DNA from: Natator depressus
Taxonomy: Eukaryota
DNA length: 64,000 nt
Direction of reading: 5' to 3'
Assembly (NCBI RefSeq): GCF_965152275.1
Contig: NC_134234.1
Coordinates: 39,522,920 to 39,586,919 of the forward strand
Shown here: positions 5,214-54,984 of the stretch, piece after piece
How the letters are laid out: every line of letters begins with the position of its first letter
Position numbering within the stretch: position 1 is the stretch's first letter
Notes under the pieces: model-generated
What the model was told of the DNA's origin: nothing
What the model saw: only the letters and a program-made list of their open reading frames with translations
The model's database searches: none
Program-made: the position numbers and the translations under genes

Positions 5214-5390
5214 ATGGCGGCGGCCGGGAGCGGGGAGGAGGCAGTGGCGGCGGCGGCCGAAGCCGAGGCGGAGAAGGAGAAGGAAGCGGCGGCGGGGTCT
5301 GGCAAGGCCGGGGGCGATGCGGGCGGCGAGAGCGAGGAGGAGGAGGACGTGTTCGAAGTGGAGAAGATCCTGGATGTGAAAACGGAGGGG
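5214..5390 (+). CDS. MPHOSPH8: MPHOSPH8 coding exon 1 (start codon, acidic N-terminus, start of chromodomain)
   Basis: ORF 5214..5402 translates MAAAGSGEE...SEEEEDVFEVEKILDVKTEG. The human MPP8 N-terminus ends ...GEDVFEVEKILDMKTEG. GTGGGT donor at 5391. Phase 0 continues into exon 2 (TEG|GKILYKVRWKG). Confidence 0.85.
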
Positions 5391-5512
5391 GTGGGTGAAT
5401 GAGGGGAGCCCCGGCCCGGCGGGGACCGGGGACCGGGGGGTGGGGTGAATGAGGGGAGCCCCGGCCCGGCGGGGACCGGGGACCGGGGGGTGGGGTGAAT
5501 GAGGGGGGCCCA
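5391..5512 (+). repeat. Tandem 50-bp repeat (about 2.4 copies) starting exactly at the exon-1 splice donor
   Basis: The unit GTGGGTGAATGAGGGGAGCCCCGGCCCGGCGGGGACCGGGGACCGGGGGG is present at 5391-5440 and 5441-5490 (TGGGGTGAAT variant), with a partial third copy to about 5512. Each copy regenerates a GTGAAT/GTGGGT donor-like site. Confidence 0.85.
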
Positions 5513-6775
5513 AGACTCCTCAGCTTTCCAACTAGCAGGAGCTAGCTGCTGTTGTGGACCCTTCCCTGCCTCTTGCCTCTTCCATTCATTCCCTTCTTTT
5601 TTCCTTTCCCCCAGAAGCTCCCTGACTTCCTCCCTTCTCCCATAGTCCCTGCCTCCTGTGTCACTCTTGTCTCACCCTCTCTCTCCCGTGGCCACATATT
5701 CCTCGCATTCCTGTGTTCTGCACCTGAGTCTTAGACCCCTGGCTAGACTAAAGGTGAGGGGCTGTGAGGGGAGCAGCCAAACAGCTGATGCCTTCAGGTG
5801 GGCTGACTCCCCATCTCTTCCCCTCACAACACAAATGCCTTTGTTTTCTAATAGTATAACCAAAGGTAGCAGGGCAGCATCTTGCACAGGCTTGAATTTG
5901 GGTTTCAGTTCTTTTTGTTTCCACCTTCATGGGCCACTTATAACTCAAGCTGCCTGAAGCTAATTTAAAACACTTTGCTTTAGGTACTTCATTTAGCATA
6001 ACTGTCTCTACCCAGTGGATCAGTTAGTCTGGGATCTCAAGCTGGGAGTGTCAAATCCTTTCTTTATGGCTACATGAAGTGGTGAAACTCTTCTGTGTAA
6101 CATGGAATAAAGGCACAAAGGAGAATCACTTTTAAAGTGACACCGACAGAAAATTGTTCCTAAAATACCTTCATTTTTGAGTCCCAATCATAAAACCAAC
6201 AAAGACACACAGGTGCCAATATTTGAGGTTATATGGATTCTTGTGGGTCAGGTTTGTCTGGGGTGATTTTTTTTGTTGTTTTTGTTTTACTTGGGCTATA
6301 AGCCCATGAAAACAGTGCTGTATCTTAATGCTTTTATTATATAACCCCAAATATAAAATATGCTTTTTGTAGCTTTGCATGAAAGAATTATTAGGAAAAA
6401 AATTTTTTTGACATTTTTCCTGGTAGTTGCAGTGGTAAAATACATTGTGAAAATACCCATTTTCTGGGTCAGTGGATCACTGGTATAAGATTCTGACAAA
6501 TGTGGTCAGCTGGTAAATGTATTATCTCAGTGAACACATTGTTTAATCCATCTTGAACTTCCAGTTGTTTCTGAATATAACTTAAATCATCAAAAGTATT
6601 CTAAGTTCCCACTGCTGTTGTATAAAGTTACTTTCCCTGTAGTGATTTCTAGGTAGTTTTCATGGATCCGTTTGGGGCACAGAATCTCTCAGGCCAGGAA
6701 TACAATTTTAGAGACAGCAGGAATGTCTTTCACAACTTAAGTTAGCTTTTCTTTGAAATGTTGAGCTACTCTTAG

Positions 6776-6950
6776 GGCTTGTCTACACTGCACCTGCGCC
6801 GCTGTTGTGCTTCAGTGCTTTCTCCTGTCAGCCTAGCTAAACCGCCGCTGTTGTGCTTCAGTGCTTTCTCCTGTCAGCCTAGCTAAACCACCGTTTACAC
6901 GGGTGGTTAGGTCAGTTTATTTGCTTCATTCAGGGAGGTGGATTTTTTAT
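6776..6950. mobile_element. MITE-like element with gtctacac-type termini and an internal 46-bp tandem duplication
   Basis: Termini gggcttgtctacactg ... ctagtgtagaccaagc are near-inverted. The internal unit ccgctgttgtgcttcagtgctttctcctgtcagcctagctaaacc is duplicated at 6801-6846 and 6847-6892. Similar gtctacac/gtgtagac-ended elements occur at 13616-13881, about 13980-14190 and 14345-14480. Confidence 0.45.
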
Positions 6951-7774
6951 GGAGAAACACAGTTATACTGACCTAATTTCCTAGTGTAGACCAAGCATTA
7001 GGGTTTGAACTCTGAAGTTTGTTGAGTAGTATTCTGTGTGTTTTTATATAGGTTGAATTCTGCATCACTTATACAATTTTTATAGGCATGTTGATTGTGG
7101 AGAAATAGCCAAAATATACAGGGAAAACTAAATAATCCTTCAGATTAAAACTGAAGTGCAAAAGCTTCAAGATTTATTACATTTATGTGCAGCTTGTTGA
7201 TGCTCACTATCTGGCAGATCTGTAACACCTCATCTTAGAACTCTTCTGTGTTGGCTTATGGAGTTAGCCTTAATTTCATGAATTTTGCTACTTAAAACAT
7301 CTAACTTTTTACTAACATATACCCCAGTGTAAGATGTATCTCCTTCTGAAGTCCATGTTCACTTGCACCAAAACAAAAGGGTGAATTATTTTGGCTCCCA
7401 GTTTCTGTGTAGACAAACCTTAAGGGTGCTCAGTAAATGAAGGCAGGGATGCAACATTTTAGAAATAACTTTAGAAGTGAAAAGCGCACAGTAAAATTGC
7501 TATGGCATACAAAAATAAAGTCTCTAGACAGACTAAATAAATCTTTAAATGTGTTAAATATCAATTTGGCTATATTCATGAATTATTTTAATCTTTGTTA
7601 ATTGCTTCATTCACTACATGCTGTTCATCATGTGCTCTAAAGGCCAAATTATGTTCAGATACTCCGGTGTAATAAATGTAAGCCCACTGACTACATTCAA
7701 TAGATGGAAGTATGCTCCAAAACCCTCAAGCTTGGTCAGCACTAGGAATTCATATTGGTATTGCTGCATCCCTC

Positions 7775-7790
7775 GGGGGGGGGGGGGGGG
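7775..7790. repeat. Poly(G) tract (16 nt)
   Basis: Uninterrupted G run adjacent to a MITE-like palindrome (ggtcaatggaagaattcttccattgacc at about 7850-7880). Confidence 0.9.
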
Positions 7791-9829: not shown

Positions 9830-10905
9830 ACCATTCTTCTTTGGTGCTTCCATGCTGATGATGGGTTCTGCTCGATAACTATCCAAAGCAGGGCAGACTG
9901 AGGCATGTTCATTTTCATCATCTGAGTCAGATGCCACCAGTAGAAGGTTGATTTTCTTTTTTGGTGGTTTGGGTTCTGTAGTTGCCGCATCAGTGTTGCT
10001 CTTTTAAGACTTCTAAATGCATGCTCCAGACCTTGTCCCTCTCAGATTTTACATGGCACTTCAGATTCTTAAACCTTGGGTTGAGTGCTGTAGCTATTTT
10101 TAGAAATCTCACATCGGTACTTTCTTTGCGATTTGTCAGTTCTGCTGTGGAAGTTTTCTTAAAACGAAACGTGCTGGTCATCATCCGAGACTGCTATAAC
10201 ATGAAATATATGCAGAATGCGGGTAAAACAGAGCAGGAGACATACAATTCCCCCCCCCCCCCCCCCCAAGTAGTACAGTCACAAATTTAATTGACACATT
10301 TTTTTTAACGAGCATCATCGGCATGGAAGCATGTCTTCTGGAATGGTGGCTGAAGCATGAAGGGACATATGAATCTTTAGCGCATCTGGCATATAAATAT
10401 CTTGCAATGCCGTGCAAACACCTGTTCTCACTTTCAGGTGACATTGTAAATAAGAAACAGGCAGCAGTATCTCACGTAAATGTAAACAAACTTAGCGATT
10501 GGCAGAATAAGAAGTAGGACTGAGTGGACTTGTAGGTTCTTAAGTTTTACACTGTTTCGTTTTTGAGTGGTGTTCTGTAACAAAAAAAACCCCTGCATTT
10601 GTAAGTTATACTTTCACGGTAAAGAGATTGCGCTTCAGTACTTAGTATTTTTCAATTCACGTCATACATCTTTTGTTTGTCATTTTTACAGTGCCTATAT
10701 TTGTAATAAAAATAATATAAAGTGAGCATTGTGCACTTTGTGTTCTGTGTTGTAACTGGAATCAATATTGAAAATGTAGAAAAACATTCAAAAACATTTC
10801 ATAAATTTCAGTTGGTATTCTATTAAGTGCAATGAATTGCAATTAATTTTTTTTAGTTAATCGTGTGAGTTAACTGCGATTAATTGACAGCCCTAATTTA
10901 TTTAT
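9830..10905 (+). mobile_element. Palindromic hAT-derived non-autonomous element, copy A (lacks the left arm)
   Basis: Collinear with 40170-42060 and 57790-58775. Carries a hAT C-terminal dimerisation fragment (ORF 10323..10517, LLEWWLKHEGTYESLAHLAYKYLAMPCKHLFSLSGDIVNKKQAA) and ends ...gttaactgcgattaattgacagccctaa, the reverse complement of the tagggctgtca... left terminus seen in copies B and C. Confidence 0.7.
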
Positions 10906-11430: not shown

Positions 11431-11586
11431 GGTAAAATTCTGTACAAAGTGCGGTGGAAGGGATATACCTCGGACGATGATACCTGGGAACCAGAGGTTC
11501 ATCTGGAAGACTGTAAGGAAGTGCTGCTTGAATTCCGAAAAAAAATAGTGGATAGTAAGCCTAAGCCTGTTAAGAAGGACATACAG
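11431..11586 (+). CDS. MPHOSPH8: MPHOSPH8 exon 2 (chromodomain)
   Basis: AG acceptor at 11429-11430. Encodes GKILYKVRWKGYTSDDDTWEPEVHLEDCKEVLLEFRKKIVDSKPKPVKKDIQ, near-identical to the human MPP8 chromodomain (GKVLYKVRWKGYTSDDDTWEPEIHLEDCKEVLLEFRKKI...KDIQ). GTATGT donor at 11587. Confidence 0.93.
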
Positions 11587-12226
11587 GTATGTCTGCTTTT
11601 CCCCCACCTTCCTTTAAAGACGTCTTTCCCTTTTTAGGCCTCATTTTCTGGTATTAAATGTTCTATGGAGTTGTGTTCAGACTCTAAAATATAATCAAAA
11701 TTTCTTTTTAGTAGAGGCCTTTATTATTGGAATGACCATTGCTTGCTCGCTTGGGAGTTGCTATTAATTAAAGTTTGGGTAATATTACAAAAATCTCTTA
11801 AATTAGGAAAAAATACCATAAGTGCTCCTTTTGGCCAAGCTTGTGAGGTCCTTACATTTAATTTGATGGCATTTCTCTTTATGTAACGTGATAACTTGTG
11901 AACTCAGCATACGATCAATTCCAAAGTTATTGGGAATGTTTAAGGCGTCAGTGGCCAGAACCTTACTGATTCTGGGGGGAAATTGGAAAACCAAAAGGCG
12001 AGAAATGGAAACCCTACCATCAGATTACTACAATCACTGTTTCAGGCACCTCTGCAATTGTATATAGTTCAAGCAGCCAGCTGATGACATCAGTTAATGC
12101 CTTGTGGCATAAAAATACTCCTGCTTGGCTTCTTAATACAGTTTAACATGTAACAAGATGCCTTGACTGACTAATCACCCAGATAGATTGGGAGTGTCTG
12201 GCGTAGGGGAAAGGGACTGGTGGTGA

Positions 12227-12404
12227 ATCATAGAATATCAGGGGTGGAAGGGACCTCAGGAGGTCATCTAGTCCAACCCCCTGCTCAAAGCAGGACCAAT
12301 CCCCAATTTTTGCCCCGGATCCCTAAATGGCCTCCTCAAGGATTGAACTCACAACCCTGGATTTAGCAGGCTAATGCTCAAACCACCTAGCTATCCCTCC
12401 CCCC
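12227..12404 (-). mobile_element. tRNA-derived SINE with CR1-type 3' tail (tortoise PolIII/SINE-like)
   Basis: The reverse complement reads ggggagggatagctaggtggtttgagcattagcctgctaaatccagggttgtgagttcaatccttgaggaggccatttagggatccggggcaaaaattggggattggtcctgctttgagcagggggttggactagatgacctcctgaggtcccttcc...ctgatattctatgat. It has a tRNA-like A box (tagctaggtgg) and B box (gagttcaatcc), and its 3' end carries the CR1 (ATTCTATG)n microsatellite. Confidence 0.65.
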
Positions 12405-13615
12405 TCATTTGGGGAGAAGGAGGTGAAATAAGGGTGCACACAGAGCTCCTGTCATAGGTGATAGAGAATGGGGGACCCGGGAAGTGGGGGCCATACAGCC
12501 CTTGCCATGGCAGGGGGAGAGAAGCTGGGCCTGGGGCATGCAAAACCCATGGTAGCAGGGAGATTGTGAGGAGTTGCAATGAATCCCTGAAAAAGAAGGG
12601 GAATGTGCAAGTGCAACACAGAGACCTTGTAGGGGAAGATGGAAGGAACCTCTGGTTTGTGCAATAAACTCAGCCTATACAAGAAATAAAGTGTGTGACC
12701 TGCTAGTATAGTTCTTTTCTCCTAGAATAGTCATAAACAGTCACATTTTTCTACATTTCTATATAAAATTGGCTCTCCTATTAGAGTAGTTTGAAAACAT
12801 TCCTTAACACTTAAGTTTTGATGGGTATATGGGAACATATAATCTTCTTTTAAAGCCTACTGTAGGTTTTCATGCTTTCCTGCTGGTTTTGATATCCTTA
12901 CAGTGTAAGACGAGAGATTCATTTTGTATATTGGAATGCTTACTTTTCAGTCCATATTGTGAAACAAGATTAACTAGATTTCTGAATATTTACACAGCAG
13001 TTATCTTCTGAAAGCTAGAATTACAGCTAGGAACTGTTTTTTTCTCATTAATAGTAACAGTTATGTGTCTATACCAGTGAAATAATTGTAGGCACAGAAT
13101 GCAGAATCTGATATCAGTCTTACCACCATTTTCTTCTCTCTCTTGTAGACTAAGCTTTTGCAGGGAGGGCAGCAGAAACGGAGACCATTTTGGATAGTCT
13201 TTTTAGTTTAAAGCACTGCTCTGTTTTGCTCTACTTTTTTTGTTTTTTTTTTAAAACCTCAGCCTTGCTATTATTGTTTGTTTTTAGACAGTTTTCTGCA
13301 TCAGCCAGGGAATGAATTTACCCTACCCAGATTCATCTCAAAGTTCAATTAAGCCCAAAGTTAAATGGTAAGGAGCCAGTCTAATCAACACTCAGCAGGC
13401 AGTTAAACGCAAATCTTTCTACCATCCCCACACCCAAACCCTATCCTCTTCCAGTGAGAACTCTTTGCTCACTCATTCTTTGAAGCAGTACTTTCGCTCC
13501 CTGCCTTGTTTGGATATTCTTTGCCCACTAATCCCTGGGAATTTTTCTTTGTTCCTGTTTAGTTTATAGTAAATGTAATGGATGATGGGACATGGGTTTT
13601 TAAGAGGCTCTTATA

Positions 13616-14698: not shown

Positions 14699-15550
14699 AA
14701 ACTGTCTTTAAATGATGAATTATTTGAGGCAGAATCTGACAGTGACTTGCAAAGTGAAGCAAAAGAAGACACATCACCGAAGAAGAAGAAGAAAAAATCA
14801 AAAGATGGTGAGGATAGAAGCCCAGATGATTTGAAAAAGAAAAAATCAAAGTCTGCAAAATTCAAAGAGAAACCCAGGCTGGAACGTGAAAACTCCTCAG
14901 ATAGTTTGATTTTAGATTCGAAACCAAAAAAAAGAACTTCAGAAACCAAGGAAGATTCAAAAGATCCTAAGAAGCAGAAGAAAGAAGATTCTAAAGAACT
15001 CAAGAAAAAGAAGGGAGAAATTAAAGATTTAAAGACAAAATGTAAAGAGGATTCTAAAGAAAGTAAAAAATTGCGAAAGGAGAAACATGGTGACCTTCAG
15101 TTTGACTCTGAGTCAAGCACCCTAGATGATTCGTTTTCTCAAGTAGCTGACAATGAAAATTCAGACTTGTGTTCTGAGGGTAGAGAGGAGAAACACAAGA
15201 TAAAAAGTGGAAAAGAGAAATCTGAACAGGAAATGGTTATGAAGGATTCCATTGCTGACAGGCAGCCAGATGGGTCAGCAAGTACTGAAGAGGACAGCAT
15301 TGAGCTGAAGGTTAAAAGGAAAAAGAAGAAACTTAAAAAGACTGAAGATTACAAAGAGGAAAGTAAAAAAGTGGAAACAAAGGACAACTATTTGGAGAAG
15401 AAAAATATGCACAAAAAACAAAAAGCTCAAGAAAAGGCAAAATCTTCTGCAGAGTTAGACAAAGTTTCACCTACACCTGCTCCAGTGCAAAAAAGTTTGA
15501 AATTGTGCACTGATGAAAAAGGGCGCAAGTCGACTGATTCAGTTGGGGAG
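14699..15550 (+). CDS. MPHOSPH8: MPHOSPH8 exon 3 (large K/E/S-rich disordered region)
   Basis: Acceptor ttttatag at 14691-14698. Encodes KLSLNDELFEAESDSDLQSEAKEDTSPKKKKKKSKDGEDRSPDDLKKKK...KGRKSTDSVGE (284 codons, phase 0 to phase 0). Colinear with human MPP8 KLSLNNDIFEANSDSDQQSETKEDTSPKKKKKK...STDSAEE. GTAAGC donor at 15551. Confidence 0.85.
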
Positions 15551-35990: not shown

Positions 35991-36002
35991 AACAGTTTTT
36001 CT

Positions 36003-40628: not shown

Positions 40629-40630
<2 letters not shown>

Positions 40631-40659: not shown

Positions 40660-40663
<4 letters not shown>

Positions 40664-44217: not shown

Positions 44218-44343
44218 ATGGCAGGCAGCAAGTCTTGAGTTTGGGAATGGACATGCAATTAGAATGGCTGACCCTGGAAGACTTTCAGAAGCATTTGGAT
44301 GGAGAAGATGAGACTCATTCTTCAACAGAACCAATATCAAGTA
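44218..44343 (+). CDS. MPHOSPH8: MPHOSPH8 exon 6
   Basis: Acceptor atgatag ends at 44217. Encodes (D)GRQQVLSLGMDMQLEWLTLEDFQKHLDGEDETHSSTEPISS (human: DGRQQILSLGMDLQLEWMKLEDFQKHLDGKDEN...). GTAAGT donor at 44344. Confidence 0.85.
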
Positions 44344-44425
44344 GTAAGTAATTTTTGGGAAGAGGGAAAAATTTCTTATCTGGTGTTCTAAAGCGAATAT
44401 TCCAATTGAATGAATTTTCTTTCAG

Positions 44426-44514
44426 CTCTACTGAGGGATGCTGTTAAAAATGGAGACTATGTTACAGTAAAGATGGCGCTTAATTCAAATGAAGAATATA
44501 ATCTGGATCAAGAG
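44426..44514 (+). CDS. MPHOSPH8: MPHOSPH8 exon 7
   Basis: Acceptor ttcag ends at 44425. Encodes (T)LLRDAVKNGDYVTVKMALNSNEEYNLDQE (human: NVLRDAVKNGDYITVKVALNSNEEYNLDQE). GTAATA donor at 44515. Confidence 0.9.
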
Positions 44515-45487: not shown

Positions 45488-45628
45488 GATTCAAGTGGAA
45501 TGACGCTAGTGATGCTTGCTGCTGCGGGAGGGCATGATGACCTCCTCCGGCTCCTTATCAGAAAAGGAGCTAAAGTCAACTGTAGACAGAAAAATGGAAC
45601 AACTGCATTGATACACGCAGCTGAAAAG
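45488..45628 (+). CDS. MPHOSPH8: MPHOSPH8 exon 8 (ankyrin repeat 1)
   Basis: Acceptor ttgcag ends at 45487. Encodes DSSGMTLVMLAAAGGHDDLLRLLIRKGAKVNCRQKNGTTALIHAAEK, near-identical to human DSSGMTLVMLAAAGGQDDLLRLLITKGAKVNGRQKNGTTALIHAAEK. GTTAGT donor at 45629. Confidence 0.93.
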
Positions 45629-46305
45629 GTTAGTTCCCTTCAACAGTATTCCTACATCTTGGCTTTTATTTTATGTTCAAACTCTCATTGCTCAGCTTGC
45701 TGCATCTAGTTAATTGAAGTATTTGTTCCAAATTTGCATCTGCGCCAGCTACTCAGATTGGTTAGTTGACTGGTGACCTTCAACTGATATTTCTGAATGT
45801 AGTTAATGAAGACAATCTGTTGCAATATGAATGTTTGCTTGAAAATTGTAAATATCAAACTGCTGCTTGTGAAGACTTACTGACAAAGCAGGCAACGTTG
45901 ATCCTATGACAAAACTTCTGTTTTATTTAATCATTTTCTTACTGTGTTTAAGTAAATGAAATAAGACAGTATCAATTTATTTGAAACTTCAAAAGATAAA
46001 ACACCTTACTGTAAAGTTTTATATGTAACAAAGTGTCAGCTATTTCATTTGGAAGTTTAGCTGTTCATGAATTATCTTGTCTTCATTCAGAACGAAAATC
46101 CTCCTGTTCATGACTTGTTGGGGGGACTGTTAAAAGCTTGCAAGTGAACCTGACATTCAGGGGTAACGCAGTACCACTTTGATGCCTTATTTTAGGGTCT
46201 TACACGCTACTAAAATCTTAATCATTCTACATTCTGTATTTAGCTTACTGTCTGAAATATTTTTAAATTTTAAAGTTTAACTGTTCTGTTCTTTTCTTTT
46301 TTAAG

Positions 46306-46392
46306 AACTTTCTAACTACAGTGGCCATTCTTTTGGAAGCTGGGGCTTATCTTAACGTCCAACAGAGCAATGGTGAAACTGCTTTAATGAAG
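46306..46392 (+). CDS. MPHOSPH8: MPHOSPH8 exon 9 (ankyrin repeat)
   Basis: Acceptor ttttttaag ends at 46305. Encodes NFLTTVAILLEAGAYLNVQQSNGETALMK (human: NFLTTVAILLEAGAFVNVQQSNGETALMK). GTAAAT donor at 46393. Confidence 0.93.
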
Positions 46393-46974
46393 GTAAATGC
46401 AGTTTTAGCCTGACGTTGTTTGATATTGTCTAATATTCAGCATTTTAGCAAGCATACTGTAGGAGGACGACAGTGTGGTATGTACAGGTATGTCTGTGGC
46501 CAGGTCTGTTTCCATGGTCTTCTTTCTCAAACCACATTTTAGCTTTAAATATAGGACAAAGATCTACTGTGTGTGTCAAAGCCCTCAGACCGCTGTCATT
46601 AGTGCAGTAATCTTTCAGTCAGTGTACTAATGCATCTCTTACTAAATGGAAAAGCTTATGATAATGCAACAGTAAAGTTGCATGTTGCATGTAATCCCAA
46701 AATACACGTGTCATCTGCACACGGGTTTAACTGCAGGTTGGTTTCTCTGTTCACTTCCCAGATCAAGAGAATGTGAGTTGAGGATTGCAGGCCAGTCTGG
46801 TTCCTTAGCAGGAGGGCAAAAATGCCAAAAAGTGAGATGCCTCCACACCCAATTATTTTTGCCCCCAGGTGATAACCCAGAGTAGGGTTTTCCTGTACTT
46901 GTTTTCTAGCAAGAGAAGGTCGGTCAGTGTTGTAATGGGGAAATGCTGAGACCCTCAATGTCCCTGGGAAGAAC

Positions 46975-47525
46975 AAGGTTGGTGAGGTAATGTCTTTTAT
47001 TGTGCCAACTTATGTTAGCAAGAGAGACAAGCTTTCAAGACACACAGCGCTCTTCTTCAGGTCTGGGAAAGGTAGGTACACCCAGATTCACAGCAAAATG
47101 CAAGGAGGAACAGATTGTTTAGCGTAAGTAGCAAGCAAATATTGTAAGGGACCATTCAAGGTAGAGTGGTCCATTAACACCTCTGCAGCCATAGGACAAA
47201 GAGTGTTGTAATAAGCCATAAATTCAGTGTCTCTGTTCAGTTCATGATTTTTAGTGTCTAGCAGAGTAATGAATATAAGCTCCCAGACTCGTCTTTTAAA
47301 AGTGCTGTGCGGGTTTCCTTTGAGTATGATATCATTCTACTTTGCATTTTGCTGTGATGCTGGGAGTACCTTTCCCAGGCCTGAAGAAGAGCTCTTGTGT
47401 GGTTTGGAAGCTTCTCTTGCTCACCAACAGAAGTTGGTCCAACAAAAGATATTACCTCCCTCACCTTCTCTCTCCAATATCCTGGGACTGACATGGCTAC
47501 AACTACGCTGCATACAACCTGGGAA
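46975..47525. mobile_element. Inverted pair of Penelope-associated hammerhead-type short repeats (palindromic, about 550 bp)
   Basis: Left arm 46983-47085 (...agcaagagagacaagctttcaagacacacagcgctcttcttcaggtctgggaaagg). Right arm 47371-47520 (tttcccaggcctgaagaagagctcttgtgtggtttggaagcttctcttgctcaccaacagaagttggtccaac...ctccaatatcctgggactgacatggctacaac). The arms are reverse complements. Each carries a CUGAAGA...GAAAGCUUGUCUCU hammerhead-like core, partly mutated. Confidence 0.6.
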
Positions 47526-47942
47526 GAACGGTCAGACAGGTGGACTGTATTTAATGTTCTATCCAGCGACTCATTACATCAGCTCTCACAAGGAATGTTG
47601 AAGTTCTCATACTAGGGTTAGATTGTCCATGGTAAGTGAAATGCATAACTTTTGTGGACAGCATAATCTATTTAGAGGGAATCATCAAGAATATGGATGA
47701 CACGTATGATAGGTTTATAAGTAGGAGACTTGTAATTTAAAATCTGAAATTAACATCCAGAAAGAATTAAAAGTACTGGAGTGTAACCTGTAACTATTGT
47801 GATTGAGTTCAATTTTATGAACTCCTCAATTCCCAGTTAGTTTTTAAAATACTGATTCTGCTGTAATTCAGTTCTCATTATGAAGTATTTTGCTACTTCA
47901 CGTGTGTGTGTGTGTGTTGTTTTTTTCCCCTTTCATGTGTAG

Positions 47943-48097
47943 GCTTGTAAGAGAGGAAACTCTGACATTGTACGACTTATGATTGAAAGTGGAGCAGATT
48001 GTAACATTTTGTCAAAGCATCAGAACAGTGCACTTCATTTTGCTAAACAGTGTAATAATGTACTGGTGTATGATCTGCTCAAGAGTCACTTGGAAAC
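47943..48097 (+). CDS. MPHOSPH8: MPHOSPH8 exon 10 (ankyrin repeat)
   Basis: Acceptor tttcatgtgtag ends at 47942. Encodes ACKRGNSDIVRLMIESGADCNILSKHQNSALHFAKQCNNVLVYDLLKSHLET (human: ACKRGNSDIVRLVIECGADCNILSKHQNSALHFAKQSNNVLVYDLLKNHLET). GTAAGT donor at 48098. Confidence 0.93.
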
Positions 48098-48828: not shown

Positions 48829-49818
48829 TTGAAACCAGTGCCCCATAACCTCAGCCGTGCAGAACACAATGCCATCCACAGCCTCAGAAACAACTCTGAC
48901 ATCATAATCAAAAAGGCTGACAAAGGAGGTGCTGTTGTCATCATGAATAGGTCGGAATATGAACAAGAGGCTGCTCGGCAGCTCTCCAACACCACTTTTT
49001 ACAAGCCATTACCCTCTGATCCCACTGAGAGTTACCAAAAGCATCTACAGCATTTGCTCAAGAAACTTCCTGAAAAAGCGCAAGATCAAATCCGCACAGA
49101 CACACCCCTGGAACCCCGACCTGGGATATTCTATCTACTACCCAAGATCCATAAACCTGGAAATCCTGGACGCCCCATCATCTCAGGCATTGGCACCCTG
49201 ACAGCAGGATTGTCCGGCTATGTAGACTCACTCCTCAGGCCCTACGCTACCAGCACTCCCAGCTACCTTCGAGACACCACTGACTTCCTGAGGAAACTAC
49301 AATCCATTGGTGATCTTCCTGATAACACCATCCTGGCCACTATGGATGTAGAAGCCCTCTACACCAACATTCCACACAAAGATGGACTACAAGCCATCAA
49401 GAACACTATCCCCGATAATGTCACGGCTAACCTGGTGGCTGAACTTTGTGACTTTGTCCTTACCCATAACTATTTTACATTTGGGGACAATGTATACCTT
49501 CAGATCAGCGGCACTGCTATGGGTACCCGCATGGCCCCACAGTATGCCAACATTTTTATGGCTGATTTAGAACAACGCTTCCTCAGCTCTCGTCCCCTAA
49601 CGCCCCTACTTTACTTGCGCTATATTGATGACATCTTCATCATCTGGACCCATGGAAAAGAAGCCCTTGAGGAATTCCACCATGATTTCAACAATTTCCA
49701 TCCCACCATCAACCTCAGCCTGGTCCAGTCCACACATGAGATCCACTTCCTGGACACTACAGTGCTAATAAACGATGGTCACATCAATCAACACCACCCT
49801 ATACCGGAAACCTACTGA
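48829..49818 (+). CDS. PLE reverse transcriptase ORF
   Basis: 329-aa ORF with Penelope-type RT motifs. The N-terminal part of the protein is probably truncated or decayed upstream. Confidence 0.8.
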   Translation: MKPVPHNLSRAEHNAIHSLRNNSDIIIKKADKGGAVVIMNRSEYEQEAARQLSNTTFYKPLPSDPTESYQKHLQHLLKKLPEKAQDQIRTDTPLEPRPGIFYLLPKIHKPGNPGRPIISGIGTLTAGLSGYVDSLLRPYATSTPSYLRDTTDFLRKLQSIGDLPDNTILATMDVEALYTNIPHKDGLQAIKNTIPDNVTANLVAELCDFVLTHNYFTFGDNVYLQISGTAMGTRMAPQYANIFMADLEQRFLSSRPLTPLLYLRYIDDIFIIWTHGKEALEEFHHDFNNFHPTINLSLVQSTHEIHFLDTTVLINDGHINQHHPIPETY

Positions 49819-50707
49819 CCGCTATTCCTACCTACATGCCTCCAGCTTTCACCCTGACCACACCACACGATCCATCGTCTACAGCCAAGCTCTGCGATAC
49901 AACCGCATTTGCTCCAACCCCTCAGACAGAGACAAACACCTACAAGATCTCTATCAAGCATTCTTACAACTACAATACCCACCTGCGGAAGTGAAGAAAC
50001 AGATTGATAGAGCCAGAAGAGTTCCCAGAAGTCACCTACTACAGGACAGGCCTAACAAAGAAAATAACAGAACGCCACTAGCCGTCACCTTCAGCCCCCA
50101 ACTAAAACCCCTCCAACGCATTATTAAGGATCTACAACCTATCCTGAAGGATGACCCAACACTCTCACAAATCTTGGGAGAAAGGCCAGTCCTTGCCTAC
50201 AGACAGCCCCCCAACCTGAAGCGAATACTCACCAACAACCACATACCACACAACAGAACCACTAACCCAGGAACCTATCCTTGCAACAAAGCCCGTTGCC
50301 AACTGTGCCCACATATCTATTCAGGGAACACCATCACAGGGCCTAACAACATCAGCCACACTATCAGAGGCTCGTTCACCTGCACATCCACCAATGTGAT
50401 ATATGCCATCATGTGCCAGCAATGCCCCTCTGCCATGTACATTGGTCAAACTGGACAGTCTCTACGTAAAAGAATAAATGGACACAAATCAGATGTTAAG
50501 AATTATAACATTCATAAACCAGTCGGAGAACACTTCAATCTCTCTGGTCACGCAATCACAGACATGAGGGTCGCTATCTTAAAGCAAAAAAACTTCAAAT
50601 CCAGACTCCAGCGAGAAACTGCTGAATTGGAATTCATTTGCAAATTGGATACTATTAATTTGGGCTTGAATAGAGACTGGGAGTGGCTAAGTCATTATGC
50701 AAGGTAG
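49775..50707 (+). CDS. PLE RT C-terminal linker + GIY-YIG endonuclease ORF
   Basis: 310-aa ORF. The GIY-YIG core IYAIMCQQC..YIGQTGQSLRKRINGHK...N...GLN fits the Penelope EN domain. Overlaps the RT ORF in a different frame, so a single indel is presumed. Confidence 0.8.
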   Translation: MVTSINTTLYRKPTDRYSYLHASSFHPDHTTRSIVYSQALRYNRICSNPSDRDKHLQDLYQAFLQLQYPPAEVKKQIDRARRVPRSHLLQDRPNKENNRTPLAVTFSPQLKPLQRIIKDLQPILKDDPTLSQILGERPVLAYRQPPNLKRILTNNHIPHNRTTNPGTYPCNKARCQLCPHIYSGNTITGPNNISHTIRGSFTCTSTNVIYAIMCQQCPSAMYIGQTGQSLRKRINGHKSDVKNYNIHKPVGEHFNLSGHAITDMRVAILKQKNFKSRLQRETAELEFICKLDTINLGLNRDWEWLSHYAR

Positions 50708-51150
50708 CCTATCTCCCCTTGTTTTTTTCCTACAAACCCCCCCCCCCCCCAAGACGTTCTGGTTAAACTTGGATTATTGCTGTGCACATTGTAAGATGAG
50801 CTATTGCCAGCAGGAGAGTGAGTTTGTGTGTGTGGTTTTTGGAGGGGTGTGTGTGTGTGTGGGGGGGTGAGAAAACCTGGATTAGTGCTGGAAATGACCC
50901 ACCTTGATTATCATGCGCATTATAAAGAGAGGTTTCAAAGAGGGATGGGCTATTACCAGCAGGAGAGTGAGTTTGTATGTGTGTCTGGGGGGGGGGGAGG
51001 GTGAGAAAACCTGGATTTGTGCTGGAAATGGCCTTCCTTGATGATCACTTTAGATAAGCTGTTAGCAGCAGGACAGTGGGGTGGGAGGAAGTTTTGTTTC
51101 ATGGTCTCTGTGTGTATATAATGTCTTCTGCAGTTTCCACGATATGCTAT

Positions 51151-51192
51151 GCATCCGATGAAGTGAGCTGTAGCTCACGAAAGCTCATGCTC
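51151..51192 (+). ncRNA. Hammerhead-ribozyme-like motif in the PLE tail (minimal helix III type)
   Basis: CCGATGA-A-GTGAGC-TGTA-GCTCAC-GAAA-GCTCATGC-TC. It has the GAUGA core, a perfect 6-bp helix II with a 4-nt loop, GAAA, a very short helix III and a UC cleavage-site candidate. It deviates from the CUGAUGA consensus at one position (U to C), so catalytic competence is uncertain. Confidence 0.35.
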
Positions 51193-52094
51193 AAATAAAC
51201 TGGTTAGTCTCTAAGGTGCCACAAGTACTCCTTTTTCTTTTTTCTTTTTAGTGTCTGTAAAGTTGAGAACCAAGAACCCTGGAGTTCTAATTCAGCCCCT
51301 GACCTTGGTTAAGTCATTTAACCCCTGTCTGTTTCAGGATTCCCTGTTTCATATGGGTGTTTAGTAACTACTTGTAAAGGTCTAAAATGCTAAATATTAT
51401 TGACAGATGCTGTCTTTCCCTTTGAAAGTTCGGTTGTCTGCTGCTAGTAGAAAGGCTTTGTCTGACTCCCTCATCACAGTCACTGCACAAATCAACTCTT
51501 CAGTGGGAGTCTTATCTCTCTTAAATTGAATTTTTACTCAACATGAATTGGGAACTCTGTCTGTTCTCACATGCAGCATCATAAGTAAAACTACAAATCA
51601 GCCTGGCTGCAAGCAAAGTGCTAATCAGTACAGTAGAGATGCTGTCTCTGCCTGGCCATTGAGTTATTCCAAGGGCACTGAGTATTTCCTGTTGTTGGAA
51701 TTTTGTTTCTGTATTGGAGAACTTTCCAGACCTGTCACCAATTTGAATTTTTTGAAGATTCTGCGGTGTACCTGTCTCAAGCTCATTGTGGTATTTAACA
51801 TCTGCAGACCAGACATAAGCAAGCAAATCTCACAACCAAACTAGATTCCGGATAAAATTTGATAGCAGCTCCTCATTTCTAGGAATTGGGATATTCCTCC
51901 TTTTAAATGTAAAGCAGGATGTATTAGCTTTTGGAATTCGGAATCCTAAATCTTACTCTCTAGAATCCTTCTGTGCTTCAATAACTGGTACATCTATTAC
52001 TGATAGTAATCTTTGTACAGTGATATGATCCTTATCTAGAAGGGAATACAGTTGCTCTAAATCTACTGTAAGCATCATTTCTTTGCTTATTTAG

Positions 52095-52249
52095 GCTCTC
52101 AAGAGTAGCAGAAGATGCAATTAGGGATTACTTTGAAGCTCGTCTTGCCTTGTTGGAGCCTGTCTTTCCGATTGCATGTCACCGTCTCTGTGAAGGACCA
52201 GATTTTTCTATGGATTTCAACTATAAACCCCCACAGAATGTGCCAGAAG
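52095..52249 (+). CDS. MPHOSPH8: MPHOSPH8 exon 11
   Basis: Acceptor tatttag ends at 52094. Encodes LSRVAEDAIRDYFEARLALLEPVFPIACHRLCEGPDFSMDFNYKPPQNVPE(G) (human: LSRVAEETIKDYFEARLALLEPVFPIACHRLCEGPDFSTDFNYKPPQNIPEG). GTAAGA donor at 52250. Confidence 0.93.
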
Positions 52250-52916
52250 GTAAGATTAGAATCTGTTTCTAATCTGCAGCTAAAACAATGTATGGTATTA
52301 CACAACGCTAATTTAACCATAAATTCCATCTTTTCAGAAACGTCCCCTTAGTTATTTTTTTTTAACCAAACATCCTCCCTACTTCATTCCTTTTGGCCTT
52401 ATAACTCACTCATTTTTCAGGGCCTTCCTTCTACTTGTTAGTCAGGTCCTTTCTTTACAACATACATTTCCGTTGCCAAACTTAAGCTAACTCTAATTCT
52501 TTAATTTCATATTTATCCTACACCTTGCCCCAATGACAAAGGCGGTCATCCTGCAATGAGCTTGCTTTCCATTAGTTTGGGAGTCTAGAATCTTTGTGGT
52601 TTTGAACAGCAACACTATGGACTAGTTATGCATCACCAAAGCAGTAAAATTTAGTATTTGTCAATATTTGCCAACAACCAAAATGGCGATCTTATAATAA
52701 TGTACAGTGTATTAGTATGAAGTTCTGTTTTGTTTAAAAACAAAAACCACAGTACCCTCCATCTAAATAAGGATTTAGTCAAGATACAGTGGATCTAGTT
52801 TTTGGTCTCCTTTACCAGTTTGGGGATGGGGGTGTAACTTTTTAAAATCATAAACCTTCTAATTTCAGATTGATCAATTTCATAAAGAAAATGTGATCTA
52901 ATTGTCCTCTCTTTAG

Positions 52917-53044
52917 GATCTGGAATTCTTCTGTTTGTTTTCCATTCAAACTTCTTTGGTAAAGAAGTCATTGCTCGGCTCTGCGGACCATGCAGTGTGC
53001 AAGCAGTGGTTTTAAATGATAAATTCCAGCTTCCTGTATTTTTG
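52917..53044 (+). CDS. MPHOSPH8: MPHOSPH8 exon 12
   Basis: Acceptor ctctttag ends at 52916. Encodes (G)SGILLFVFHSNFFGKEVIARLCGPCSVQAVVLNDKFQLPVFL (human: GSGILLFIFHANFLGKEVIARLCGPCSVQAVVLNDKFQLPVFL). GTAAGT donor at 53045. Confidence 0.93.
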
Positions 53045-53763
53045 GTAAGTATTGTTCATTTAACTAGTTAATCTGCTTTTATAGCACCTCTACAAAAAAC
53101 AAACTTGTAATCTGTGTAATTTCAAGGGATTTGAGGTGTACTTCAGTCCCAGAATATTTCTCGTGACAGACCTTTTAATATAGTAAATTGCAGAGGTTTC
53201 TTCGTTTCAGAACAGATTTAAAAAAAAAAAAAACACTGTAGAGAAACTGCAGTAGAAATGGTTATTAAATATTCCCATTTTCCTGTCTTCAAGGCTAGTG
53301 AAGATCAGAGATGAAGCACTGTCAATAGGGAGTTGAGCAGGAAGTGGGCAAATTGTCAATCTTAGTACCTTTTCTGGTCAGCTTCAGTCAATGACATGAG
53401 AATTTCAAAAGCTCAAGAATCCCAGTCTCTTAGCCATGAAAGAACTAAGTTTGAGTTAAACTGCTTTGTATTAAGTATACTATCCTGAAATTTGTAGCAA
53501 TTAAACTTGTATTCCTAAGTTTACCTTTCATTAGTGCTTCAATATAATCACATTCCCTAGTTCTGTTTCTTCACAGAGAATGATGCACGTACCCCAAAGG
53601 GCTTAATTAATGTTGTCTCTGAACTATCTTTCCAAAAATACACTTGTAGCTATGGATGAGATGTTCTTAACTCCGATCTCTGTGCTTCTCTGGGCACTTT
53701 GAGGTTAAATGCAGAAGTGTTTGCCACACACCAACACTAACTTATTGTAATTTTTTCTTTTAG

Positions 53764-53847
53764 GATAGTCACTTTATTTATTCCTTCAGTCCTGTTACAG
53801 GCCTTAACAAGCTTTTTATACGGTTGACAGAAGCGCCTGCTGCCAAG
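53764..53847 (+). CDS. MPHOSPH8: MPHOSPH8 exon 13
   Basis: Acceptor ttttcttttag ends at 53763. Encodes DSHFIYSFSPVTGLNKLFIRLTEAPAAK (human: DSHFVYSFSPVAGPNKLFIRLTEAPSAK). GTGAGA donor at 53848. Confidence 0.93.
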
Positions 53848-54942
53848 GTGAGACATGCTTACCTGTCCAAAATGTGCGTAATAAGGTGGTGGTAGAGCGA
53901 TTTTTATTTTGACAGATGTTTCAATGTCTTTCTCTTCCAGGAGTCTCAGTACTACAAATTATAGGCCTGGCCTATAAATGTAAAATTATTTAAGGTGTTC
54001 CTTATTTCCTTCCCTTCAATTCAGTAGCCAACCCTTTTCAGCCCCTGTCCCACTCTATCTGTGATTTTGCCAAAAGTCACTTAGGGTCACTGCTGAGGAG
54101 ATTCACTTTGAAGTTGGAAATATTTCCATCATGAATAAACAATAGCCAGAGTAATTCATACCCCAGAACAAAGTGCTTAAATTGCAGTAGGACTAAATTA
54201 TTGCAAATGGTGTTTACTAGGTCAGTAATAGGGAGCAAGTAAAGGTAGCAGCTACCAGATGTGCACTGAATGATGTGGGCACAGACCAACTACCAGCCAT
54301 CTTTTGTTAAACCTGTGTAACTGGTTTCAGTGCTATGGAAAGTTCAGAAGCTGTTACTCAAGAGCATGCATTGAAGTGAGGGTGTGCAATTTCCTTTTTA
54401 GAAGTGTAGAAAGTCTGCTAGATGCTGCCAGATAGTTCCTGCAGTGGTCACAATAGTCACCACAAGAGTAACGATAGTTTGATTCTGTCTAATAACACTT
54501 CTGGGAGGAGGAGTTGTGGTTCTTATTCGCTCTAGCACTACAGAATAATGAGGTTTTCCTGTATTTAATTATGCTGCCTATCAAATACAGTAGCATTTCA
54601 TCCAAAAAGCTTTTCTAACAACCTGATTGCTGGCTAACATGATAAAGGAAGGTAATTCTATTGAAGCTCCTGGTCAAGGTTTGGAGTACGCTAATTTACA
54701 AACTTGTTTGCTGTATGAACAGAGGATGCTTAAAGTACTTTACTTTCCTTTTTAATTTTGATTTTCAAACTGTTCATTTTAGAATATGGGTCCAAAAAAT
54801 TCTGATCCACCAAGTACAGATTATATAAACTCCATTTTCTTCAGTTACTAGCAAGTTTCCTCCACCTCCCCTTTACTCAGTATTTTTACCTTTGTGCAAG
54901 ATATATGGATAGTCATTTGAAGCATTTTTTCCCTTCTTACAG

Positions 54943-54984
54943 GTAAAGTTGCTAATGGGGGCATACAGAGTGCAGTTGCAGTGA
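54943..54984 (+). CDS. MPHOSPH8: MPHOSPH8 terminal coding exon 14 (with stop codon)
   Basis: Acceptor ccttcttacag ends at 54942. Encodes VKLLMGAYRVQLQ then TGA at 54982-54984 (human C-terminus VKLLIGAYRVQLQ*). The 3' UTR follows. The nearest AATAAA candidates are at about 55761 and 55779, but I cannot place the poly(A) site from sequence alone. Confidence 0.88.
   Translation, partial: VKLLMGAYRVQLQ

What the first reader, a model, noticed from the sequence alone, without database searches (positions are those of the whole stretch)
5214..54984. The MPHOSPH8 (HUSH complex) gene sits inside a very dense retroelement field
All 14 coding exons of MPP8 are recoverable with clean GT/AG boundaries and continuous reading frame (about 850 aa versus 860 aa in human). 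The introns carry at least three DIRS insertions or remnants, a near-intact Penelope element, two CR1s, a hAT-Tip100 remnant, three palindromic hAT elements and several MITEs. MPP8 is the chromodomain reader of the HUSH complex, which is known to silence young intronic retroelements in transcribed genes, so the reader's own locus is a concentrated set of potential HUSH-type targets. Sense-oriented DIRS and Penelope elements occupy introns 3, 4 and 10.
Basis: partly seen in the sequence, partly recalled or inferred. Interest (0 to 1): 0.5.

Follow-up and report, generated by a model that had tools for sequence, protein, structure and literature searches.

The report
Sea-turtle MPHOSPH8 gene with ordinary intronic transposons
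This is the already annotated MPHOSPH8 (MPP8) gene of the flatback sea turtle, and its introns carry about the same load of old, broken transposons as the rest of a sea-turtle genome, so nothing marks it as a special target of the silencing complex it helps to form.

Summary
A 14-coding-exon gene lies on the + strand at 5214-54984. All 13 introns are GT..AG and the frame is continuous. The 850-aa product is identical to RefSeq XP_074814024.1, MPHOSPH8 of Natator depressus. Most of the transposon inventory is also right: two sense DIRS copies (introns 3 and 4), a small antisense DIRS fragment, two antisense CR1s, a sense Penelope (intron 10), a hAT transposase remnant and palindromic hAT elements.

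Three corrections are needed. The Penelope is not near-intact: it starts inside its ORF, has no promoter and carries a frameshift. One palindromic hAT and one DIRS copy lie downstream of the gene. The 'very dense' claim fails: identified transposons cover at least 43-46% of the gene, against 41.6-55.5% genome-wide in a related sea turtle.

The HUSH self-target idea has no support here. The sense DIRS copies are degenerate, tens of millions of years old and A-poor (about 22% A, against 41% for L1 ORF2). Only the 2.4-kb Penelope is recent and mildly A-rich.

One new detail: comparison with three other turtles shows exactly two Natator-specific insertions, a CR1 and the Penelope, each with a clean empty site. 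The verdict is an ordinary, already known gene.

The parts
4600..5700 (+). CpG-island promoter region and 5' end of MPHOSPH8, containing coding exon 1
   Evidence: GC 66%, CpG o/e 0.70 against 0.31 for the window. Promoter function is inferred from composition only.
5214..5390 (+). Coding exon 1: ATG, acidic N-terminus and start of the chromodomain
   Evidence: The donor is GT. The spliced protein is an exact RefSeq match.
11431..11586 (+). Coding exon 2: chromodomain core
   Evidence: tblastn; AG/GT boundaries; Pfam Chromo E=1.8e-15; PDB MPP8 chromodomain 3lwe E=1.1e-31.
14699..15550 (+). Coding exon 3: 852-nt Lys/Glu/Ser-rich disordered region
   Evidence: The sense strand is 44.5% A.
28852..28957 (+). 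Coding exon 4
   Evidence: The alternative acceptor 6 nt downstream gives an 848-aa protein that is not in the database, whereas the 850-aa form is.
42417..42671 (+). Coding exon 5
44218..44514 (+). Coding exons 6 (44218-44343) and 7 (44426-44514), separated by an 82-nt intron
45488..48097 (+). Coding exons 8 (45488-45628), 9 (46306-46392) and 10 (47943-48097): ankyrin repeats
   Evidence: Pfam Ank_2 E=3.6e-25.
52095..54984 (+). Coding exons 11 (52095-52249), 12 (52917-53044), 13 (53764-53847) and 14 (54943-54984, including the stop): C-terminal domain
   Evidence: Residues 535-850 align to PDB 8qfb_B (MPP8) at E=4.2e-189.
9845..10893 (.). Palindromic hAT-derived element, intron 1
   Evidence: 75-81% identical to the copies at 39.6-42.0 kb and 57.2-58.8 kb, on both strands. 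hAT dimerisation-domain remnants lie on both arms (Pfam E=2.7e-4, just below the cut-off). Partly shared with Gopherus and Chrysemys.
12221..12409 (-). Short CR1 3'-end fragment, intron 2
   Evidence: 83 bp are 98.8% identical to the 3' end of CR1a. Absent at the orthologous place in Gopherus and Chrysemys and present in Chelonia.
16060..16290 (-). Small DIRS-related fragment, intron 3, antisense
   Evidence: 70-73% identical to 36363-36549 of DIRS B on the opposite strand.
21126..27273 (+). DIRS A: 6.1-kb DIRS1-type retroelement, sense, intron 3, degenerate
   Evidence: Inverted terminal repeats at 21136-21318 and 27069-27244, 84-90% matched. An internal region, 26932-27033, is complementary to both ends. 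RVT_1 E=3.9e-7; RNase H weak. The tyrosine-recombinase ORF at 26195-26827 has one in-frame stop. Its homologues are turtle proteins that UniRef names 'Tyr recombinase domain' or 'Core-binding domain', and a profile of them hits Cre/Tre at E=1.5e-4. The ORFs are split over several frames. Present in Chelonia; absent at the orthologous place in Gopherus and Chrysemys.
29715..33205 (+). Old hAT transposase remnant, intron 4, interrupted by CR1a
   Evidence: Transposase-like frames. Dimer_Tnp_hAT E=4.6e-4 at 32879-33205; DUF4371 only E=0.013-0.077. Flanks shared with all three other turtles.
30912..32760 (-). CR1a: 5'-truncated CR1-type LINE, antisense, intron 4, Natator-specific insertion
   Evidence: RVT_1 E=1.8e-37 in an open 335-aa frame. 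A clean empty site, GGAGAAAATA|CTAGAAAAAA, is seen in Chelonia, Gopherus and Chrysemys. The 3' end carries the ATTCTATG repeat; its assignment to CR1 is from my own knowledge.
34667..35851 (-). CR1b: older CR1-type fragment, antisense, intron 4
   Evidence: tblastn to the CR1a RT, 42-64%. RVT_1 E=6e-4, below the cut-off. Shared with Gopherus.
35988..39160 (+). DIRS B: 5' half of a DIRS element (left ITR, gag-like region, start of RT), sense, intron 4
   Evidence: Left ITR homologous to that of DIRS A. gag-like and RT N-terminal regions are 47-49% identical to DIRS A at protein level. Shared with Gopherus and Chrysemys.
39633..42026 (.). Palindromic hAT-derived element, intron 4, with a nested Penelope fragment at 41091-41534 (+)
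   Evidence: Long inverted arms. Dimer_Tnp_hAT E=1.2e-11. The Penelope fragment is 79% identical to 50243-50688, with a weak GIY-YIG match at E=0.016. Shared with Chrysemys and Gopherus.
46975..47516 (.). MITE-like inverted pair, intron 9
   Evidence: 46975-47103 against 47467-47342, 79%; inverted arms. A related copy lies at 17571-17667.
48841..51249 (+). Penelope-like element: 2409 bp, sense, intron 10, Natator-specific, 5'-truncated
   Evidence: RVT_1 E=4.1e-11 and GIY-YIG E=9.2e-5. One frameshift near 49785. Full-length relatives align only from their residues 257-351 onward. Flanked by an AGTG duplication, with a clean empty site in three turtles.

Best explanation
The window holds the orthologous, intact, already annotated MPHOSPH8 (MPP8) gene of the flatback sea turtle Natator depressus. 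It has a CpG-island 5' end and 14 coding exons. The 850-aa protein has the family's chromodomain, ankyrin repeats and conserved C-terminal domain.

The introns hold an ordinary turtle complement of dead transposons that built up over more than 100 million years:
- Layers shared with tortoises and pond turtles: DIRS B, CR1b, the hAT elements and a Penelope fragment.
- A layer shared only with the green turtle: DIRS A and a CR1 tail.
- Two insertions specific to the flatback lineage: a 1.85-kb antisense CR1 and a 2.41-kb sense Penelope. Both were 5'-truncated on arrival.

These elements are most likely passive passengers, transcribed as part of the pre-mRNA and removed with the introns. Nothing in the sequence singles out this locus as a target of HUSH. 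The gene model, the TE identities and the relative ages are shown here. That the TEs are functionally inert is inferred.
For: Gene model and identity:
- GT..AG at all 13 introns and a continuous frame.
- Exact identity of the 850-aa product to RefSeq XP_074814024.1, MPHOSPH8 of Natator depressus. Its 90%-identity cluster consists of MPHOSPH8 from other turtles.
- Chromo and ankyrin domains in Pfam.
- PDB MPP8 C-terminal domain at E=4.2e-189 and MPP8 chromodomain at E about 1e-31.
- About 80 named top hits are all MPHOSPH8, and the next hits are bacterial ankyrin proteins with far lower scores.

TE load and age:
- Identified TEs cover 43% of the span, against 41.6-55.5% genome-wide in hawksbill.
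- The gene spans 45.5, 44.9 and 47.9 kb in Chelonia, Gopherus and Chrysemys.
- Natator and Chelonia are collinear at 96.5-97.6%, apart from two insertions whose sizes (1849 + 2409 bp) account exactly for the length difference.
- Divergence dates are 33.6 and 104 My.
- The sense DIRS copies are A-poor and frameshifted.
- The Penelope begins inside its ORF.
Against: - No RepeatMasker library was available, so the TE fraction is a lower bound. It is compared with another species' genome-wide figure, not with matched Natator introns.
- By bases, sense retroelements outweigh antisense ones (12.2 kb against 3.5 kb). By count they are 4 against 4.
- The recent sense Penelope is longer than 1.5 kb and mildly A-biased (31.5% A, 21.6% T). 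It carries an AATAAA near its 3' end. An effect on transcription or polyadenylation therefore cannot be excluded from sequence alone.
Confidence: 0.9

Rival explanations
1. Self-targeting or feedback. The sense-oriented intronic retroelements, above all the recent Penelope, are recognised by HUSH on the nascent MPHOSPH8 transcript. H3K9me3 then dampens expression of the complex's own reader, giving a negative feedback loop.
For: The Penelope is sense-oriented, 2.4 kb long (above the roughly 1.5-kb length threshold in PMC8770142), mildly A-biased and recent. HUSH is reported to act on L1s within transcribed genes.
Against: - The DIRS copies have only about 22% A and are GC-rich, old and degenerate.
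- The Penelope has 31.5% A against 41% for L1 ORF2, and it is a promoterless truncated copy.
- PMC8770142 reports that HUSH ignores older degenerate elements and that intron sequence protects against HUSH.
- TE density is average.
- Chelonia, Gopherus and Chrysemys lack the Penelope, so any such loop would be limited to Natator.
- No paper in the searchable library names the MPHOSPH8 locus as a HUSH target.
Confidence: 0.03
2. The locus is a real insertion hotspot, or a region of relaxed purifying selection, with TE density above that of comparable turtle genes.
For: Two lineage-specific insertions in 33.6 My within one 50-kb gene. Nested insertions are present: CR1a lies in a hAT remnant and a Penelope fragment lies in a hAT element.
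Against: The 43-46% coverage is within the genome-wide range for a confamilial species. The flanks carry a similar identified load, 5.5 of 14.2 kb. Gene length is stable at 45-50 kb across four turtles separated by about 104 My.
Confidence: 0.05
3. Some of the intronic elements are co-opted, for example as alternative exons, a premature poly(A) site in the Penelope tail, or regulatory DNA in the GC-rich DIRS A.
For: An AATAAA lies in sense orientation at about 51195 in the Penelope tail. DIRS A has a raised CpG o/e of 0.54. Other turtles have shorter annotated isoforms of 792 and 807 aa.
Against: The RefSeq product equals the 14-exon model with no TE-derived residues. The TE ORFs are decayed. 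No expression data are available.
Confidence: 0.04

Closest known systems
MPHOSPH8 / MPP8 (human Q99549; RefSeq XP_074814024.1 of Natator depressus)
   Same: The 850-aa product is identical to the Natator RefSeq protein. It has the same chromodomain, ankyrin repeats and C-terminal domain as human MPP8. The C-terminal 316 residues align end to end with PDB 8qfb_B at E=4.2e-189.
   Different: Nothing at protein level. The central Lys/Glu-rich region is only about 49% identical to my recalled human sequence, as expected for a disordered linker.
DIRS1-type tyrosine-recombinase retroelements of turtles
   Same: Inverted terminal repeats plus an internal complementary region, a gag-like ORF, RT, RNase H-like region and a C-terminal tyrosine recombinase with a core-binding domain.
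   Different: All copies here are dead. DIRS A is frameshifted, has an in-frame stop, and by eye has substitutions at recombinase motif positions (ARC for ARR, HSTW for HSTR). DIRS B is only a 5' half. The third intronic piece is 230 bp.
Penelope-like elements (RT plus GIY-YIG endonuclease)
   Same: RT followed by a GIY-YIG domain in one reading direction. 94% identical to a database relative (P0210; the 95% hit P0211 is a chimeric prediction) and 42-49% identical to full-length 880-980-aa PLE proteins. Short target-site duplication.
   Different: It lacks the first roughly 255-350 residues of the ORF and any upstream repeat or promoter. It has one frameshift. The hammerhead-like motif in its tail has a changed core position and no Rfam match.
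HUSH-targeted intronic young L1s of human genes (Liu et al. 2018, cited from my own knowledge; Seczynska et al. 2021, PMC8770142)
   Same: Retroelements in sense orientation inside introns of a transcribed gene, three of them longer than 1.5 kb.
   Different: They are not L1 and not full-length, and their ORFs are degenerate or truncated; whether any keeps its own transcription was not tested. Sense-strand A is 21.5-31.5% against 41%. Most are tens to more than 100 My old. No chromatin evidence exists.

Membership tests
MPHOSPH8 (MPP8) orthologue | N-terminal H3K9me3-reading chromodomain | tested here: met
   Pfam Chromo E=1.8e-15 at residues 47-97. PDB MPP8 chromodomain chains 3lwe, 3qo2 and 9h77 at E=1e-31 to 7e-33. 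Methyl-lysine binding itself was not tested.
MPHOSPH8 (MPP8) orthologue | Ankyrin repeats followed by the conserved C-terminal domain | tested here: met
   Ank_2 E=3.6e-25. Residues 535-850 align to all of PDB 8qfb_B (MPP8) at E=4.2e-189.
MPHOSPH8 (MPP8) orthologue | Best database hits are MPHOSPH8, and the model equals an annotated protein | tested here: met
   All named top hits are MPHOSPH8. Exact match to XP_074814024.1 of Natator depressus.
MPHOSPH8 (MPP8) orthologue | Assembly with TASOR and periphilin, and a silencing function in turtles | not testable with these tools
   Needs biochemistry or genetics in turtle cells.
DIRS retroelement (DIRS A, 21126-27273) | Reverse transcriptase | tested here: met
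   RVT_1 E=3.9e-7, 30.4 bits against a cut-off of 29.6.
DIRS retroelement (DIRS A, 21126-27273) | Tyrosine recombinase in place of an integrase | tested here: met
   Pfam found nothing directly. Homologues of the 26195-26827 ORF carry the UniRef names 'Tyr recombinase domain-containing' and 'Core-binding (CB) domain-containing'. A profile of ten of them hits Tre/Cre recombinases at E=1.5e-4 to 4e-3. The support is moderate and covers mainly the core-binding domain.
DIRS retroelement (DIRS A, 21126-27273) | Inverted terminal repeats with an internal complementary region | tested here: met
   Arms 21152-21290 and 27088-27226 are 90% complementary. The internal region 26932-27033 pairs with both ends.
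DIRS retroelement (DIRS A, 21126-27273) | RNase H domain | tested here: inconclusive
   RT_RNaseH E=0.0011, 19.5 bits, below the cut-off of 24.8.
Penelope-like element (48841-51249) | RT plus C-terminal GIY-YIG endonuclease | tested here: met
   RVT_1 E=4.1e-11. GIY-YIG E=9.2e-5, 23.1 bits against a cut-off of 22.6.
Penelope-like element (48841-51249) | Full-length ORF, as implied by the 'near-intact' claim | tested here: not met
   The element starts inside the ORF at the insertion boundary. Relatives of 881-981 aa align only from residues 257-351. There is a frameshift near 49785.
Penelope-like element (48841-51249) | Hammerhead ribozyme in the terminal repeat | tested here: not met
   No Rfam match at the gathering threshold or at E<=10. 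A CCGAUGA-stem-GAAA motif at 51153-51190 is visible by eye only.
CR1-type LINE (30912-32760) | LINE reverse transcriptase, 5' truncation and a CR1 3' octamer repeat | tested here: met
   RVT_1 E=1.8e-37. The 3' end reads ...ATTCTATGATTC on the element strand. The link between this octamer and CR1 rests on my own knowledge. No RT phylogeny was done.
hAT DNA transposon (39633-42026 and relatives) | hAT C-terminal dimerisation domain and terminal inverted structure | tested here: met
   Dimer_Tnp_hAT E=1.2e-11. Long inverted arms. The 8-bp target duplication was not examined.
hAT-Tip100 subgroup (29715-33205) | Tip100-type transposase | tested here: inconclusive
   DUF4371 E=0.013-0.077, far below the cut-off. 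Dimer_Tnp_hAT E=4.6e-4, 20.3 bits against 21.4. It is a hAT remnant; the subgroup was not shown.
HUSH target (as defined in PMC8770142) | Long element, more than about 1.5 kb | tested here: met
   DIRS A is 6.1 kb, DIRS B 3.2 kb and the Penelope 2.4 kb.
HUSH target (as defined in PMC8770142) | High A content on the sense strand (L1 ORF2: 41% A, 20% T) | tested here: not met
   DIRS A has 21.5% A and 23.0% T. DIRS B has 22.1% A and 24.8% T. The Penelope has 31.5% A and 21.6% T.
HUSH target (as defined in PMC8770142) | Young, full-length, transcriptionally active element | tested here: not met
   All copies are truncated or frameshifted. DIRS A is at least 33.6 My old and DIRS B at least about 104 My. 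Own-promoter activity cannot be tested here.
HUSH target (as defined in PMC8770142) | HUSH-dependent H3K9me3 and periphilin binding of the transcript | not testable with these tools
   Needs ChIP or CUT&RUN and RIP in turtle cells.

The most novel reading that the evidence does not exclude
In the flatback turtle lineage, the recent sense-oriented 2.4-kb Penelope insertion in intron 10 (perhaps together with the sense DIRS copies) makes the MPHOSPH8 transcript itself a HUSH substrate. The silencing complex would then tune the dose of its own chromodomain reader through an intronic retroelement. This would be a species-specific autoregulatory loop, and it would show that HUSH recognises non-L1 retroelement classes in reptiles.
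Probability: 0.03. Interest if true: 0.55.

Novelty: already known. Interest (0 to 1): 0.1.

Why it matters
It matters little. The gene is already annotated in RefSeq with exactly this structure. Its intronic transposon load is what a sea-turtle genome predicts.

There are two modest gains. First, two retroelement insertions are cleanly dated: a CR1 and a Penelope, both younger than the Natator/Chelonia split of about 33.6 My, each with an empty site in three other turtles. This shows that both families were active in the flatback lineage. Second, the analysis shows why the 'HUSH guards its own gene' idea does not follow from the sequence.

If turtle HUSH did act on these elements, that would extend HUSH substrate rules beyond L1. 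Nothing here points that way.

Tried and rejected
- Pfam did not detect a tyrosine recombinase in the DIRS ORFs, even at E<=10. This was resolved through homologues and a profile search of PDB.
- An Rfam scan of the whole window at gathering thresholds found nothing. So did a relaxed scan of the Penelope tail, with no hammerhead and only a chance lncRNA hit at E=2.8.
- ARAGORN found no tRNA genes.
- I tested whether the GC-rich repeats at 7.95-8.65 kb and 18.3-19.0 kb are DIRS remnants. They are related to each other, and weakly to 1.9-2.0 kb, but not to any DIRS copy by blastn or tblastx. They remain unclassified.
The exact-sequence cluster look-up worked instead.
- P0211, a 95%-identical 'relative' of the Penelope ORF, turned out to be a chimeric database protein (CR1 + Penelope + unrelated tail). 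It was not used to judge truncation.
- The alternative exon-4 acceptor 6 nt downstream (848 aa) was rejected because that protein is not in the database, whereas the 850-aa form is.
- My recalled human MPP8 sequence served only as a tblastn guide to locate exons. All conclusions rest on database and PDB matches.
- A literature search for the MPHOSPH8 locus as a HUSH target returned nothing.

Full report
**Observation.** The window is vertebrate DNA of 43.5% GC with a GC-rich CpG island at about 4.6-5.7 kb. The large open frame at 14747-15667 finds M-phase phosphoprotein 8 of tuatara, birds and mammals. I located exons by tblastn, using database MPP8 fragments and my recalled human sequence as a guide only. 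I then read the boundaries directly and assembled a 14-coding-exon model on the + strand from 5214 to 54984. Every one of the 13 introns begins GT and ends AG, the frame is continuous, and the CDS is 2553 nt, giving 850 aa.

**Identity of the gene.**
- Pfam finds a chromodomain at residues 47-97 (E=1.8e-15) and ankyrin repeats at 556-697.
- In the PDB sequence search, residues 535-850 align over their full length to the MPP8 chain of 8qfb (E=4.2e-189), and residues 44-104 align to MPP8 chromodomain structures.
- A search with the C-terminal 420 residues returns about 80 named hits, all MPHOSPH8, from lamprey to mammals. Bacterial ankyrin proteins follow at far lower scores.
- The 850-aa sequence is an exact match to RefSeq XP_074814024.1, M-phase phosphoprotein 8 of Natator depressus. 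It sits in a cluster of MPHOSPH8 proteins of 843-854 aa from other turtles. The alternative acceptor 6 nt downstream in exon 4 gives an 848-aa protein that is not on record.

The window is therefore flatback sea turtle, and the gene model is already annotated exactly as reconstructed.

**Transposon inventory.** Evidence comes from self-comparison, protein-level comparison between copies, Pfam and repeat finding.

- Intron 3 holds DIRS A (21126-27273, sense).
  - It has inverted terminal repeats that are 84-90% matched, and an internal region (26932-27033) complementary to both ends. This is the DIRS1 architecture.
  - It has a gag-like frame, an RT just above the Pfam cut-off and a weak RNase H.
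  - Its C-terminal frame has closest relatives in turtle proteins that UniRef names 'Tyr recombinase domain' and 'Core-binding domain'. A profile of these hits Cre/Tre recombinases.
  - Its coding capacity is split across several frames and carries an in-frame stop.
- Intron 3 also has a 230-bp antisense DIRS fragment at 16060-16290.
- Intron 4 holds six features:
  - a hAT transposase remnant at about 29.7-33.2 kb;
  - CR1a (30912-32760, antisense), inserted into that remnant;
  - CR1b (34667-35851, antisense);
  - DIRS B (35988-39160, sense, 5' half only);
  - a palindromic hAT element (39633-42026);
  - a Penelope fragment (41091-41534), nested in that hAT element.
- Intron 1 has another palindromic hAT copy (9845-10893).
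- Intron 2 has a 189-bp CR1 tail.
- Intron 9 has a MITE-like inverted pair.
- Intron 10 holds the Penelope element (48841-51249, sense), with RT and GIY-YIG domains.
- A third palindromic hAT (57241-58773) and a further DIRS copy (60816-62828, antisense) lie downstream of the stop codon.

**Is the Penelope near-intact?** No. Its two open frames (332 and 311 aa) are separated by a frameshift near 49785. Full-length Penelope-like proteins of 881-981 aa align to it only from their residues 257-351 onward. The empty-site comparison shows that the element begins at 48841, inside the ORF. It arrived as a 5'-truncated copy without upstream sequences.

**Ages, from orthologous loci.** I fetched the MPHOSPH8 loci of Chelonia mydas, Gopherus evgoodei and Chrysemys picta. 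Their CDS spans are 45.5, 44.9 and 47.9 kb, against 49.8 kb here.

- Natator and Chelonia are collinear at 96.5-97.6% identity, apart from exactly two Natator-only segments: CR1a (1849 bp) and the Penelope (2409 bp). Their sum, 4258 bp, equals the length difference between the two genes.
- Both segments have clean empty sites in all three other turtles. The Penelope is flanked by an AGTG duplication.
- The Natator/Chelonia split is dated at 33.6 My and the split of sea turtles from other Durocryptodira at 104 My (PMC12448945). These two insertions are therefore younger than about 34 My.
- DIRS A is older than 34 My. It is absent at the orthologous place in the two testudinoids. The breakpoints there are not clean, so deletion in those lineages is not excluded.
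- DIRS B, CR1b and the hAT element with its nested Penelope fragment are shared with testudinoids, so they are about 100 My old or older.

**Is the field unusually dense?** The identified elements sum to 21.5 kb, or 43% of the span. That rises to about 46% once the whole hAT remnant is counted. Retroelements alone make up 31%. A confamilial sea turtle, the hawksbill, is reported at 41.6% TE by RepeatMasker and 55.5% combined, with LINE plus LTR-class at 25-41% (PMC10492850). In human genes, TEs occupy about half of intronic space (abstract of PMC10901741). The window's flanks carry a similar identified load. The density is therefore average. This comparison is approximate: my figure is a lower bound, the comparator is a different species, and introns are not matched.

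**The HUSH interpretation.** According to PMC8770142, HUSH repression depends on transcription, on length (short inserts up to about 1 kb escape; most cDNAs above about 1.5 kb are hit) and on high A content of the sense strand (L1 ORF2: 41% A, 20% T). Its targets are young, full-length L1s. It ignores older degenerate copies, and intron sequence protects against it.

Measured on the gene's sense strand:

| Element | A | T | GC |
|---|---|---|---|
| DIRS A | 21.5% | 23.0% | 55.5% |
| DIRS B | 22.1% | 24.8% | 53.1% |
| Penelope | 31.5% | 21.6% | 46.9% |

The DIRS copies thus fail the composition and age criteria. Only the truncated Penelope goes part of the way. No paper in the searchable library describes the MPHOSPH8 locus as a HUSH target. 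The idea stays untested speculation. I put it at about 3%.

**Mechanism, committed.** The gene works as an ordinary MPHOSPH8 orthologue. Transcription starts from a CpG-island 5' region (inferred from composition). Fourteen coding exons are spliced (shown by sequence and by identity to RefSeq). The protein has a conserved H3K9me3-reading chromodomain and a conserved ankyrin/C-terminal domain (shown by homology; binding is inferred). The intronic elements are relics that are co-transcribed and spliced out (inferred). My confidence is about 0.9.

Noticed in passing
window 30912-32760 and 48841-51249; L001 28693-28695 and 44755-44758: These are the only two large differences between the flatback and green-turtle MPHOSPH8 genes. 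One is a 1849-bp antisense CR1 and the other a 2409-bp sense Penelope. Each has a clean empty site in Chelonia, Gopherus and Chrysemys, and the Penelope is flanked by an AGTG duplication. Both families were therefore active in the Natator lineage within about the last 34 My.
   Followed up: yes
window 51153-51190: The Penelope tail contains a hammerhead-like core, CCGAUGA, then a 6-bp stem with a 4-nt loop, then GAAA. It carries a C where the consensus has U. Rfam gives no match, so this is seen by eye only. An AATAAA follows at about 51195 in sense orientation.
   Followed up: partly
window 14699-15550: MPHOSPH8's own exon 3 is an 852-nt exon with 44.5% A and 19.1% T on the sense strand. That is more A-rich than any transposon in the locus.
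   Followed up: no
window 16987-28211: An 11-kb block that includes DIRS A has no counterpart in Chrysemys; in Gopherus the gap is 18899-27557. The block is present in Chelonia. The breakpoints do not coincide with the DIRS ends, so several events, or deletions in testudinoids, are involved.
   Followed up: partly
window 7950-8650 and 18300-19000; a short weak match at 1938-2012: A GC-rich repeat family (63% GC at 7.95-8.65 kb) has long spurious open frames on the minus strand. The two copies are related to each other but not to the DIRS copies or to any Pfam family. It remains unclassified.
   Followed up: partly
window 29715-30911 and 32761-33205: CR1a inserted into an older sense-oriented hAT transposase remnant, whose two halves resume exactly at the insertion boundaries. 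This is a nested insertion.
   Followed up: yes
window 60816-62828 and 63832-63989: Downstream of the gene lies an antisense DIRS copy with RNase H-like, following and tyrosine-recombinase regions. Near the window end there is a further short recombinase-like fragment.
   Followed up: partly
protein P0211: This 699-aa database protein is 95% identical to the Penelope RT. It is a chimera of CR1, antisense Penelope, sense Penelope and an unrelated C-terminus, which makes it a gene-prediction artefact in some turtle assembly.
   Followed up: partly
window 15551-15865: The tuatara UniProt entry A0A8D0GNG4 (504 aa) aligns past the exon-3 donor into intron 3 of this window. This suggests a read-through or retained-intron model in that annotation. 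In the window, the frame stops at 15665-15667.
   Followed up: no
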